DNA of 35,248 bases from positions 1 through 35,248 of the IMG/VR virus record IMGVR_UViG_2563366961_000002; one strand, written 5' to 3'. This DNA comes from a virus (lineage: Duplodnaviria; Heunggongvirae; Uroviricota; Caudoviricetes). A program made the position numbers and the translations under genes. This document shows, piece by piece, positions 12,118 to 12,874 of this stretch. The notes beneath the pieces are model-generated. The model searched no databases. It saw nothing but the letters and a program-made list of their open reading frames with translations, and was not told the origin of the DNA. How positions within the stretch are numbered: the stretch's first letter is position 1; each line of letters begins with the position of its first letter.

Positions 12118-12339
12118 TCATTTTGTGACCAATGCGATAAGTAGCGGGATAAGAATTGATAAAATCAACAGGCCGATGATCCACTTTTGATTTTCACTGG
12201 CCTTATCTCTATTTTCATCAATCTTATCAATAATTCGACGCTCCAATCCGTGCATATCACCGCGAATGGCAATCATCTCATTGCGAACATCAGGGAAGTG
12301 GTTGGCTTGATGTTCAATGTGTGGCGTTCTGCCTTTCAT
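12118..12339 (-). CDS. small protein with C-terminal TM anchor (XhlA-like architecture)
   Basis: ATG preceded by GAGGA; coiled-coil-like N-terminus, C-terminus WIIGLLILSILIPLLIALVTK. Confidence 0.5.
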   Translation of the reverse strand: MKGRTPHIEHQANHFPDVRNEMIAIRGDMHGLERRIIDKIDENRDKASENQKWIIGLLILSILIPLLIALVTK

Positions 12340-12418
12340 ATCTGATCCTCACCTATCGTCACTACCTGCTGGTGTATAAAGGTATTGGCCCAAGCAACTT
12401 TCCAATGGGCACTCATGT

Positions 12419-12874
12419 TTATACGCTGACCTTACAATCAATCACTGCTTTTAGCTTTTCAGCATTGCTTCCCTGACGCTTCCACGCGCTGTAAATATCT
12501 TTATCCCACGCTTTACCAGCTTTTGTTTGATAGCCTGCTTCATTGATCCGTTCAGCTATCACACGCCCATTATCAAATCCCTGTTGGATGGTATCGGCAA
12601 TGATCTTTATAACTGCCGTTTCGTTATATGGTTTTGGTGGGATGTTCGGCTTTCCGGCAATAAGCGACGCAGCGGCTTTTTCCATGCGCTCCACCAGCCC
12701 AAGCATTCGTGAATCAATAGACTTTTCCGGCTGCCCCAGCTTCATGCGAATCGCATCAACAAGCCAGGAGGTTTTATCTCCTCCAGAAGCGAGAACAGAC
12801 CGATTAAACTCATCCTGCAATTCAGATGGGATGCGGAACGCGACCAGATTAGATTTGCTCATTGCAAAGACCAT
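12419..12874 (-). CDS. putative RHH-like DNA-binding protein (about 147-151 aa)
   Basis: N-terminus SNLVAFRIPSELQDEFNRSVL resembles RHH beta-strand/helix; lies next to iteron module B; start could be ATG 12874 or 12862. Confidence 0.45.
   Translation of the reverse strand: MVFAMSKSNLVAFRIPSELQDEFNRSVLASGGDKTSWLVDAIRMKLGQPEKSIDSRMLGLVERMEKAAASLIAGKPNIPPKPYNETAVIKIIADTIQQGFDNGRVIAERINEAGYQTKAGKAWDKDIYSAWKRQGSNAEKLKAVIDCKVSV

What the first reader, a model, noticed from the sequence alone, without database searches (positions are those of the whole stretch)
12118..12874. RHH-like regulator followed by a small C-terminal-TM protein
Same-strand pair next to iteron module B: a 147-151 aa RHH-like protein, then a 73-aa protein with coiled-coil N-terminus and C-terminal membrane anchor (XhlA/holin-like). 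This could be a regulator plus membrane toxin or lysis-type effector, but a plain replication regulator is equally possible.
Basis: inference. Interest (0 to 1): 0.45.

Follow-up and report, generated by a model that had tools for sequence, protein, structure and literature searches.

The report
Satellite regulator beside borrowed membrane gene
Two real neighbouring genes, a self-regulating DNA-binding protein of a phage-satellite island and a small membrane-anchored protein borrowed from P22-like prophages, sit together through cassette swapping and are not a dedicated toxin or lysis pair, so the finding is fairly ordinary.

Summary
Both ORFs are real, and both lie on the minus strand. The 147-aa protein (12862..12419; 151 aa from an upstream ATG) belongs to a conserved Enterobacterales family. 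It is a backbone gene of a Gram-negative PICI-type satellite: C4 RNA, P4-alpha-like primase, TTGGTTCA origin iterons, then a late/cargo zone. It has an Arc/Mnt-like ribbon-helix-helix N-domain and a recombinase-like three-helix C-domain. Its beta-strand type matches the repeat type at its own promoter in 55 of 55 scorable gene copies, so autoregulation at 12897-12923 is the best-supported function. The iterons do not track the beta-strand type.

The 73-aa protein is under purifying selection (dN/dS about 0.2). It is one long helix with a C-terminal membrane anchor and is distantly XhlA-like. Its relatives lie in Mnt/Arc/Ant (immI) moron regions of P22-like and siphovirus-type prophages.

In the window it fills a 365-bp swap slot (12099-12463). 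Sister islands carry an Abi_2 gene there. Of 362 E. coli genomes with a match to the interval, only 166 carry the full pair; most listed partial matches hold the regulator gene alone. No homolog of the 73-aa protein turned up in the 49 loci from other genera.

A regulator-plus-toxin or lysis module is therefore not supported. The small protein is most likely resident-state membrane cargo used for exclusion or defence. This is a new member of known kinds, of modest interest.

The parts
12419..12874 (-). Gene for a two-domain DNA-binding protein: N-terminal Arc/Mnt-like ribbon-helix-helix and C-terminal recombinase-like three-helix HTH. The ORF runs from the first ATG at 12874 (151 aa). The conserved start is at 12862 (147 aa, MSKSNL...).
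12118..12339 (-). Gene for a 73-aa tail-anchored membrane protein, distantly XhlA-like. It has a charged helical N-part (1-52) and a TM anchor at 54-72.
   Evidence: dN/dS 0.17-0.23. AF2 single helix. Hydropathy 2.95. phrog_6324 E 5e-11 and holin phrog_689 E 3e-3. Profile link to proteins carrying PF10779.
12897..12923 (-). Inferred operator of the RHH protein. On the minus strand it reads GTATAAC-AGT-GTTATAC, a 17-bp palindrome at 12907-12923. A third heptad, GGTATAC (12897-12903), overlaps the -10.
   Evidence: This is the only conserved block in otherwise diverged upstream DNA. Its type matches the beta-strand type in 55 of 55 scorable gene copies.
12896..12904 (-). Inferred extended -10 promoter element, TGgTATACT, of the RHH gene.
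   Evidence: TGnTAnAnT is conserved at the same position in all clades: TGGTATACT, TGATATAAT and TGGTAAAAT. The strict two-hexamer scan did not call it.
12099..12463 (.). Swap slot holding the 73-aa gene cassette and the last ~15 codons of the RHH gene.
   Evidence: Sister island L073 is 99% identical up to 12098 and again from 12464, with 1.4 kb carrying Abi_2 in between. Similarity to a P22-like prophage covers only 12120-12377. E. coli genomes with the RHH gene alone break at 12452-12472.
12978..13096 (.). Iteron module B: TTGGTTCA x3 direct and x3 inverted. It is a second copy of the origin-type module found after the primase gene.
13134..13415 (+). PerC-family regulator gene, divergent from the RHH gene.
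   Evidence: PF06069 E 3.7e-30.
10982..11596 (-). SieA-like inner-membrane protein gene (204 aa), same strand and downstream of the 73-aa gene.
   Evidence: phrog_7745 'superinfection exclusion SieA-like', E 4.4e-4. The C-terminal TNRYPGEARRARK resembles the SieA motif FxRYPxEAxxFNK (PMC10883804). It lies right after the gene 16 homolog.
12074..12089 (+). GACAAGTACGCGCGCG motif at the left border of the swap slot. Other copies are at 11788-11803, 11841-11856 and 13464-13479.
   Evidence: 4 copies against 0.34 expected. Also present in satellite loci of other genera, in different reading frames. The homology break falls right after it.
6203..10962 (+). Captured P22-like late genes: gp14, gp7, gp20 (cut by IS1) and gp16. 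This is the satellite's late zone.
   Evidence: PHROG hits. The same block sits in sister islands at other chromosomal sites.
2681..5575 (+). P4-alpha-like primase/helicase gene (2681-5440) followed by iteron module A (5467-5575), the inferred origin.
   Evidence: phrog_1139 E 2e-178. Iterons. Same layout in the 12-kb circular relative L007.
175..262 (+). C4-type antisense immunity RNA of the satellite.
   Evidence: Rfam RF01695, 79.9 bits against a gathering score of 45.

Best explanation
The interval contains two genes from different mobile-element lineages that became neighbours through cassette exchange.

(1) The 147-aa gene is the inward-facing terminal backbone gene of a Gram-negative PICI-type satellite. 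The island's layout is C4 immunity RNA, P4-alpha-like primase, TTGGTTCA origin iterons, late/cargo zone, then this gene. Its protein has an Arc/Mnt-like ribbon-helix-helix N-domain and a nearly invariant recombinase-like HTH C-domain. It most likely binds as a dimer of dimers to heptads spaced 10 bp apart (GTATAAC-N3-GTTATAC plus a third heptad over the extended -10) and represses its own promoter. This step is inferred.

(2) The 73-aa gene encodes a tail-anchored, XhlA-like membrane protein. Its relatives live in the Mnt/Arc/Ant moron regions of P22-like and siphovirus-type prophages, usually behind a ~120-aa zinc-ribbon protein. In the window it sits alone in a 365-bp swap slot just 3' of the regulator gene, where sister islands carry an Abi_2 abortive-infection gene.

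No terminator separates the two genes. The small gene, and perhaps the SieA-like gene beyond it, is therefore probably read through from the autoregulated promoter and made at a low steady level while the island is resident (inferred). Its most likely role is membrane-level exclusion of, or defence against, incoming phage (inferred, weakest step). It is unlikely to be a toxin held in check by the regulator or a lysis effector.
For: Independent distribution of the two genes:
- The regulator family was found in 49 loci of about 25 genera. At least 25 of them carry the same primase convergent 0.1-9 kb away, and none has a detectable homolog of the 73-aa protein.
- The 12-kb circular relative L007 has primase, iterons A, regulator, iterons B, PerC and integrase, but no 73-aa gene.
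- 362 of 5426 E. coli genomes match the interval, and only 166 cover the full pair.

Contexts of the 73-aa family:
- P22-like prophages: Mnt-like RHH, ~120-aa protein, XhlA-like protein, small membrane protein, converging on gp16.
- Leclercia and Klebsiella prophages, and phages SPN3UB and ST101-KPC2phi6.1, again near Arc/Ant modules.

Slot swap: L072 and L073 carry Abi_2 (E 2e-52) between the same flanks.

Regulator function:
- Beta-strand type (N/T/Y)L(V/I)A pairs with the GTATAAC/GTTATAC repeats in 31 of 31 copies, and (L/I)SVT pairs with the TGTCTTAC repeats in 24 of 24.
- The operator is the only conserved upstream block.
- hhalign against Arc/Mnt gives E 4.3e-5.
- Distant relatives hit RHH_1, NikA-like, Arc and Recombinase.
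- The identical TTGGTTCA octamer accompanies both regulator types and also sits next to the primase gene.

Other points:
- No terminator or stable hairpin between the genes.
- The PICI four-zone framework and late-gene capture are described in PMC10111431.
- SieA biology is described in PMC10883804.
Against: - No binding, transcription or phenotype data exist. Co-transcription is inferred only from the absence of a terminator.
- The operator covariation rests on two deep clades, so it is effectively one or two evolutionary switches, not 55 independent events.
- The RHH fold was not modelled as a dimer, and the N-domain has low pLDDT in the monomer model.
- The window protein hits no Pfam RHH model.
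- The defence or exclusion role of the 73-aa protein rests on neighbourhood alone: no PADLOC hit, its usual zinc-ribbon partner is missing here, and some E. coli copies are frameshifted.
- An RHH protein directly upstream of the XhlA-like gene recurs in P22-like prophages (Mnt). Some functional logic of 'RHH promoter drives this gene' may therefore be selected and not accidental.
Confidence: 0.6

Rival explanations
1. A toxin-antitoxin-like or regulator-plus-membrane-toxin module. The RHH protein represses and/or neutralises a toxic 73-aa membrane protein.
For: The gene order (RHH first, small membrane protein 79 nt downstream, same strand, no terminator) resembles type II TA operons. An RHH protein upstream of XhlA-like genes recurs in P22-like prophages.
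Against: The two families are distributed independently. The junction between them is a recombination border inside the RHH gene's 3' end. The RHH C-domain is nearly invariant in loci that lack the small gene. There are no PADLOC or TA-family hits. In P22-like prophages a ~120-aa gene separates the RHH gene from the XhlA-like gene.
Confidence: 0.06
2. A lysis-type effector. The 73-aa protein acts like PBSX XhlA or a holin and helps lyse the cell when the island or its helper phage is induced.
For: There is a weak match to holin phrog_689 (E 3e-3). Relatives score 16-29 bits on PF10779 XhlA and are named 'hemolysin XhlA family protein' by NCBI. The protein is a single helix with a TM.
Against: It was never found next to a holin, endolysin or spanin gene. 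In all twelve contexts examined, outside this island and its near-identical copies, it lies among virion genes in a moron region, in ten of them beside an Arc/Mnt RHH gene. The TM sits at the extreme C-terminus with no charged tail, unlike holins. The window protein itself has no PF10779 hit at E<=1. The slot alternates with Abi_2.
Confidence: 0.1
3. A replication regulator. The 147-aa protein binds the adjacent TTGGTTCA iterons, for example through its invariant C-domain, and controls the satellite's copy number or pairs the two iteron modules, as in P4 ori/crr control.
For: An iteron module lies within 1.3 kb upstream of the gene in 24 of 55 scorable copies, often 60-80 nt from the operator. 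The C-domain is the most conserved part (90% mean column identity), and the iteron octamer is likewise invariant across genera. The island has two iteron modules, like P4 ori and crr.
Against: The iterons also directly follow the primase gene, and P4-alpha-type primases bind their own iterons (established knowledge of P4). 31 of 55 copies have no iterons upstream. The beta-strand goes with the promoter repeats and not with the iterons. C-domain binding to iterons is untested.
Confidence: 0.15
4. A Mnt-like maintenance repressor. The 147-aa protein mainly represses the divergent PerC promoter, as an immI-type switch, and autoregulation is secondary.
For: The divergent RHH and PerC layout in E. 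coli islands mirrors mnt | arc-ant. The N-domain matches Arc/Mnt profiles.
Against: In most other genera PerC is not adjacent and lies next to the primase gene several kb away, while the operator stays at the RHH promoter. In the window the operator is more than 200 nt from the PerC start, with the iteron module in between. The protein lacks Mnt's C-terminal coiled coil, and there is no ant gene.
Confidence: 0.12

Closest known systems
P22 Mnt / Arc (ribbon-helix-helix repressors of the immI region)
   Same: The N-terminal beta-alpha-alpha pattern matches (FRIP...GGDKTSWL against LRLP...NRSLNAEM). Profile-profile match E 4.3e-5. The inferred operator overlaps a promoter. The gene sits at the head of a leftward operon that contains small membrane proteins and a SieA-like gene next to gene 16.
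   Different: No PF03869 hit. The protein is 147 aa with a recombinase-like HTH C-domain in place of Mnt's tetramerisation coiled coil. It is a backbone gene of a primase-bearing satellite, not of a P22-like phage. No arc or ant genes are present, and the divergent gene is perC.
XhlA of Bacillus prophage PBSX / Pfam PF10779
   Same: Both are small, mostly helical proteins with a C-terminal membrane anchor. Relatives 48-52% identical to the window protein carry sub-threshold PF10779 matches.
   Different: The window protein has no PF10779 hit, and relatives score 16-29 bits against a gathering score of 34.7. The genes are not in a lysis cassette but in Mnt/Arc/Ant moron regions, and are often paired with a ~120-aa zinc-ribbon protein.
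Gram-negative PICI satellites (four-zone layout of PMC10111431: Integration, Bro with C4/CI RNA, Replication with ori after pri, Late zone captured from helpers)
   Same: The window has C4 RNA, a primase, iterons after the primase and a captured block of P22-like late genes. The 12-kb circular relative has an integrase, AntA/B and Icd-like genes.
   Different: The reverse-oriented RHH gene at the far end, the second iteron module and the swap slot beside it were not found in two papers on such satellites (term searches and partial reading only). alpA was not examined here.
P22 sieA locus (sieA-orf59a-mnt between genes 16 and 9)
   Same: The order gene 16, SieA-like membrane protein, small ORF, RHH gene is reproduced.
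   Different: The small ORF is not detectably related to anything in the 50,697 phage records. The RHH gene is of satellite origin. No tailspike gene follows.
Defence hotspots of P4-like satellites (Rousset et al. 2022, PMC9122126)
   Same: A fixed position in a satellite backbone holds alternative cargo. Abi_2 sits there in sister islands, and toxin-antitoxin-like and other genes in other genera.
   Different: This is a different satellite type and a different slot. The anti-phage role of the XhlA-like cargo is unproven. The 2022 paper is cited from its title and abstract only.

Membership tests
Ribbon-helix-helix (Arc/MetJ/CopG) DNA-binding proteins | N-terminal beta-strand, helix A, G-x-S/T turn and helix B recognisable by family profiles | tested here: inconclusive
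   No Pfam RHH hit for the window protein or for 25 family members. hhalign of the N-domain profile against an Arc/Mnt alignment gives probability 69% and E 4.3e-5 over 41 columns in register. Distant relatives score RHH_1 19.1-24.1 bits (gathering score 20.5) and Arc 19.5 bits (gathering score 20.4). AF2 gives helices 17-29 and 34-45 but no strand in the monomer model.
Ribbon-helix-helix (Arc/MetJ/CopG) DNA-binding proteins | The beta-strand reads short repeated operator sites, usually at the protein's own promoter | tested here: met
   Beta-strand type and promoter repeat type match in 55 of 55 scorable gene copies, in two types. The operator is the only conserved upstream block. This is a comparative inference, not a binding assay.
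Ribbon-helix-helix (Arc/MetJ/CopG) DNA-binding proteins | Intertwined homodimer | not testable with these tools
   Only single-chain prediction was available, and the N-domain pLDDT is 50-60 as a monomer.
Type II toxin-antitoxin module | The two genes are inherited together as a conserved pair | tested here: not met
   49 loci of the regulator family in other genera show no homolog of the small gene. 166 of 362 E. coli genomes cover the full pair. The small gene occurs elsewhere without this regulator.
Type II toxin-antitoxin module | The downstream protein is toxic and is neutralised by the upstream protein | not testable with these tools
   This needs inducible expression with and without the partner.
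XhlA family (Pfam PF10779) | Score at or above the Pfam gathering threshold (34.7 bits) | tested here: not met
   The window protein has no hit at E<=1. Six relatives score 16.1-28.6 bits. The profile search does link the window family to proteins with precomputed PF10779 at E 1e-16 to 1e-19.
XhlA family (Pfam PF10779) | Encoded in a lysis cassette with holin and endolysin genes, as in PBSX xhlA-xhlB-xlyA (from established knowledge) | tested here: not met
   All twelve contexts examined outside this island lie among virion genes, and ten of them beside Arc/Mnt/Ant genes. No lysis genes are adjacent.
Holins | One or more TM segments followed by a charged cytoplasmic C-terminal tail, with the gene next to an endolysin gene | tested here: not met
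   The TM spans 54-72 of 73 residues and only K73 follows it. No endolysin gene is nearby. The holin phrog_689 match is only E 3e-3.
P22 Mnt repressor | Arc-family domain (PF03869), a C-terminal tetramerisation coiled coil, and a divergent arc-ant operon | tested here: not met
   No PF03869 hit. The C-domain is a three-helix HTH. The divergent gene is perC.
Gram-negative PICI satellite (context of the pair) | Primase with an origin directly downstream, a Bro/immunity-RNA zone, a captured late zone, and an integrase | tested here: met
   Primase and iterons. C4 RNA. P22-like late block. Integrase, AntA/B and Icd-like genes in the 12-kb circular relative. alpA was not examined. Helper-dependent transfer is not testable here.
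SieA superinfection-exclusion proteins (neighbouring gene 10982-11596) | Multi-pass inner-membrane protein between the gene 16 and gene 9 homologs, with the cytoplasmic motif FxRYPxEAxxFNK | tested here: inconclusive
   phrog_7745 E 4.4e-4. The position right after gene 16 is met. The motif is matched in part (TNRYPGEARRARK). No direct comparison with a known SieA sequence was run.

The most novel reading that the evidence does not exclude
The XhlA-like tail-anchored protein may be a stand-alone anti-phage membrane effector (superinfection exclusion or abortive infection) that satellites and prophages trade as a minimal 365-bp cassette. It is interchangeable with Abi_2 in a previously undescribed hotspot next to the satellite's RHH gene, and it is switched on by whichever RHH promoter lies upstream (Mnt in P22-like phages, the 147-aa protein here). 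A further unexcluded twist is that the RHH protein's invariant C-domain also touches the adjacent iteron module and couples cargo expression to satellite replication.
Probability: 0.25. Interest if true: 0.55.

Novelty: new member of a known kind. Interest (0 to 1): 0.3.

Why it matters
If the reading is right, a widespread 'hypothetical protein' family gets a working annotation: autoregulatory RHH plus HTH protein that marks the distal end of a class of primase-bearing phage satellites. The family has more than 350 clusters across Enterobacterales and no Pfam model. The annotation comes with a predicted operator and two predicted specificity types that can be tested by swapping three or four residues.

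The reading also locates a cargo slot in these satellites where Abi_2, toxin-antitoxin-like genes and the XhlA-like gene alternate. That makes the small membrane protein a cheap candidate to test for phage exclusion. The pair itself is an ordinary mosaic junction, not a new system.

Tried and rejected
- Megablast and tblastn of both proteins against 50,697 phage records found nothing. Only a more typical 111-aa relative found seven phages.
- PADLOC gave no hit for any gene in the neighbourhood.
- NCBIfam gave only noise for the two proteins.
- A sequence search of the PDB with the family profile gave only noise.
- Foldseek of the 73-aa model against viral structures gave 0 matches. Foldseek of the 147-aa model gave nothing below E 0.1. 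The afdb50 library was unavailable.
- Comparing the family alignment with a single Mnt-like sequence was not significant (probability 1.7%), although the register was right. It was superseded by the domain-level profile comparison.
- The strict sigma-70 and terminator scan found no promoter for either gene and no terminator. The promoter proposed here is an extended -10 type, seen only by comparative alignment.
- I considered that the iterons are the regulator's operator. I rejected this for the N-domain because the same octamer accompanies both beta-strand types and also follows the primase gene.
- I considered that GACMAGTACGCGCGCG encodes a shared peptide (FRDQYAR). I rejected this because the copies fall in different reading frames.
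- I considered a helper-embedded PICI (a satellite inserted in a prophage late gene). I rejected it because satellite sequence flanks the P22-like block on both sides, and the same composite sits at three different chromosomal sites.
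Full report
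**Observation**

The interval 12118-12874 holds two ORFs on the minus strand. One is a 151-aa ORF at 12874..12419. The other is a 73-aa ORF at 12339..12118, 79 nt downstream. RefSeq annotates both as hypothetical proteins in an identical E. coli chromosome, where the larger is called from Met5 as 147 aa. All 24 aligned homologs carry the MSKS-type start at that position, so 12862 is the real start. The TTGGTTCA 'iteron module B' is real. Six exact copies (3 direct, 3 inverted) lie at 12978-13096, between this gene and a divergent PerC gene. The window has 12 copies against 1.5 expected.

**Where the window comes from**

The window is an E. coli chromosomal island in the thrW-ecp region. The left part of the window holds these features:
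- a C4-type antisense RNA at 175-262;
- a 919-aa P4-alpha-like primase/helicase at 2681-5440;
- iteron module A, 27 nt after the primase stop;
- P22-like gp14, gp7, gp20 (cut by IS1) and gp16;
- a SieA-like membrane protein gene on the minus strand.

A 12,152-bp circular E. coli record shows the uninterrupted relative. It carries AntA/B, Icd-like, primase, iterons A, a 1.25-kb variable stretch, the RHH gene, iterons B, PerC and an integrase. This matches the four-zone layout described for Gram-negative PICI satellites: Integration, a Bro zone with C4/CI RNA, Replication with an origin after pri, and a Late zone captured from helper prophages (PMC10111431).

**The 147-aa protein**

*Distribution.* It has 355 homologs at E<=1e-3, about 143 aa long and 64-79% identical across genera, and none has a Pfam domain. 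An exhaustive HMMER search of 1.84 billion representatives found only 82 at E<=1e-3, so the family is narrow. A scan of one genome per species returned 49 loci in about 25 genera of Enterobacterales. In at least 25 of them the same primase lies convergent, 0.1-9 kb downstream. The space between the two genes is a variable cargo zone, from 140 nt in a Photorhabdus locus to about 7 kb here. Neither tblastn nor megablast found the gene in 50,697 phage records, which fits a satellite gene.

*Target.* The upstream regions are otherwise diverged, and one block is conserved just before an extended -10. Proteins with beta-strand (N/T/Y)-L-(V/I)-A always have GTATAAC-N3-GTTATAC followed by TGnTATACT or TGATATAAT. 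This holds in 31 of 31 copies, from Escherichia, Klebsiella, Raoultella, Pluralibacter, Serratia, Buttiauxella izardii, Morganella, Providencia, Proteus, Photorhabdus and Xenorhabdus. Proteins with (L/I)-S-V-T always have TGTCTTAC-N2-TGTCTTAC followed by TGGTAAAAT. This holds in 24 of 24 copies, from Erwinia, Pantoea, Tatumella, Rosenbergiella, Mixta, Cedecea, Chimaeribacter, Symbiopectobacterium and Buttiauxella noackiae. One further copy, a degenerate gene with an internal deletion, could not be scored. In the window the operator is at 12897-12923 and the -10 at 12901..12896.

The two types are deep clades, so this is effectively one or two co-switches. It is still the pattern expected for an RHH autoregulator.

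The TTGGTTCA octamer behaves differently. It is identical in both types, present upstream in 10 of 31 and 14 of 24 copies, and it also follows the primase gene. It therefore goes with the primase, as in P4 ori/crr (established knowledge), and not with the RHH beta-strand. The C-domain is the most conserved part of the protein, with 90% mean column identity. Whether it also contacts the iterons is open.

**The 73-aa protein**

*Reality of the gene.* It is a real gene. dN/dS is 0.17-0.23 against three relatives, synonymous sites are saturated against more distant ones, and 66-aa variants differ by an in-frame 21-nt deletion. Some E. coli copies are frameshifted.

*Structure and family.* AlphaFold gives one helix over residues 9-72. 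Residues 54-72 form a strong membrane anchor with only one residue after them. A single-sequence search found just 24 relatives, nearly all from E. coli. A profile search reached 112 proteins. These include 48-52% identical proteins from Klebsiella, Serratia, Cedecea and Pluralibacter that carry PF10779 (XhlA) and NCBI's 'hemolysin XhlA family' name. On a direct scan those relatives score 16-29 bits, below the gathering score of 34.7, and the window protein scores nothing. 'XhlA-like' is therefore a fair description, but membership is not established.

*Context.* In genuine P22-like E. coli prophages the order is tailspike, Ant and Arc on one strand. On the other strand come Mnt-like RHH, a ~120-aa protein, the XhlA-like protein and a small membrane protein, converging on gp16. 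In Leclercia and Klebsiella siphovirus-type prophages, and in phages SPN3UB and ST101-KPC2phi6.1, the gene lies in the moron region before the tape-measure gene. In most of these it is again beside an Arc/Mnt/Ant module, and usually right after a ~120-aa zinc-ribbon protein. No context has lysis genes nearby.

**Are the two genes a module?**

No, on five counts.
- Nucleotide similarity of the window to a P22-like prophage covers only 12120-12377.
- Similarity to satellites of other genera and to the circular relative stops at 12462-12472, inside the last codons of the RHH gene.
- Sister islands L072 and L073 are 97-99% identical up to 12098 and again from 12452 (L072) or 12464 (L073). Between those points they carry a 1.4-kb Abi_2 gene (E 2e-52) on the other strand.
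- Among 5,426 complete E. coli genomes, 362 match the interval and only 166 cover at least 80% of it. Most listed partial matches cover only 12452-12874, that is, the RHH gene.
- In other genera the position holds SocA/Panacea-type, DprA-like or other genes, mostly convergent.

So 12099-12463 is a swap slot, and the 73-aa gene is one cargo among several. It also arrived without its usual zinc-ribbon neighbour.

**How it most likely works**

*Shown:* the two gene families, their separate distributions, the swap slot, the conserved operator-like repeats and their match with the beta-strand type.

*Inferred:*
- The 147-aa protein represses its own extended -10 promoter.
- No terminator-like site or stable hairpin lies between the genes or just after the 73-aa gene. 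Transcription probably continues into the 73-aa gene and possibly into the SieA-like gene 520 nt further on. That would give low, steady expression while the island is resident, as Pmnt does in P22-like prophages.
- The 73-aa protein acts at the inner membrane against incoming phage.

The third step is the weakest inference. It rests on three things: the company of a SieA-like gene (SieA blocks P22-type DNA entry, PMC10883804), the alternation with Abi_2, and the moron-type contexts.

**Rivals**

A toxin-antitoxin-like pair, a lysis effector, an iteron-binding replication regulator and a Mnt-like repressor of perC are each scored in their own section of this report. The first two conflict with the distribution and context data. 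The last two remain possible as additional roles of the regulator.

**Novelty and interest**

Both proteins are new or unannotated members of known kinds: an RHH/HTH regulator and an XhlA-like tail-anchored protein. Their adjacency is a mosaic junction. The useful by-products are a testable operator code for a family with no Pfam model, the definition of a cargo slot in this satellite type, and the observation that these satellites carry P22-type ejection-protein genes together with a SieA-like gene. Interest is 0.3.

Noticed in passing
window 6203-11596; also L012, L072, L073: The satellite carries a captured block of P22-like virion genes (gp14, gp7, gp20 and gp16, the ejection proteins) plus a SieA-like exclusion gene. 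The same block sits in sister islands at three or more chromosomal sites: the thrW island, next to dinD-yicG-ligB, and next to pao-yagU. A satellite that brings its own ejection proteins together with an exclusion protein that targets such proteins may be worth its own study.
   Followed up: partly
window 5467-5575 and 12978-13096; L007 6541-6649 and 8437-8555: There are two TTGGTTCA iteron modules with the same layout of 3 direct and 3 inverted copies, about 78% identical to each other. One directly follows the primase gene and one lies beside the RHH promoter. The arrangement recalls P4 ori and crr. The octamer is identical from Providencia to Erwinia.
   Followed up: partly
window 11788-11803, 11841-11856, 12074-12089, 13464-13479: The motif GACMAGTACGCGCGCG (core palindrome TACGCGCGCGTA) occurs 4 times against 0.34 expected. 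It also occurs in satellite loci of Serratia, Tatumella, Morganella and Providencia, in different reading frames. The copy at 12074-12089 sits exactly at the left border of the swap slot. Its function is unknown; it could be a recombination or regulatory site.
   Followed up: partly
L008 7517-8234; L068 5643-6336; L067 5652-6303; L074 3535-4204; L075 3565-4216: A recurrent two-gene cassette, a ~120-aa zinc-ribbon protein (CPMCG...CKHCG) followed by the XhlA-like protein, occurs in P22-like and siphovirus-type prophages and phages. All copies are annotated as hypothetical. In the window the zinc-ribbon partner is absent.
   Followed up: partly
L072 8003-8965; L073 7956-8933: Sister islands carry an Abi_2 (PF07751, E 2e-52) gene in the slot that holds the 73-aa gene in the window. 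Other genera carry SocA/Panacea-type or DprA-like genes there. This suggests a defence-type hotspot next to the RHH gene.
   Followed up: partly
window 175-262: A C4-type antisense RNA (Rfam RF01695, 79.9 bits) lies at the very left edge of the window, inside the start of a 180-aa ORF with regulator-like PHROG hits. This looks like P4/P1-type RNA immunity for the satellite.
   Followed up: no
window 7335-8598: The gp20 ejection-protein gene is cut short (249 aa against about 450-470 aa in relatives) by an IS1 element at about 8095-8598. In strain AF3 an IS1 at the matching place has removed everything from the integrase region to gp16.
   Followed up: partly
window 13134-13415 versus L007 8593-8880: The PerC genes of the window and of sister islands share near-identical DNA (96-98%) over about the first 28 codons and then diverge, to 53% identity overall. 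The homology break is at 13217, inside the gene, which indicates another recombination junction.
   Followed up: no
window 14554-14913 (-) and 13713-13898 (+): A 119-aa ORF and a 61-aa ORF recur beside the RHH gene in many genera. The 119-aa homolog lies directly upstream on the same strand in Erwinia, Klebsiella, Pantoea, Tatumella and others. They look like further unannotated backbone genes of this satellite type.
   Followed up: no
window 21695-28357: The right half of the window holds remains of another element (major capsid protein, baseplate protein, IS2-type insertion, tyrosine integrase) before yagU, ykgJ and the ecp operon. The island is therefore a composite of several decayed elements.
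   Followed up: no
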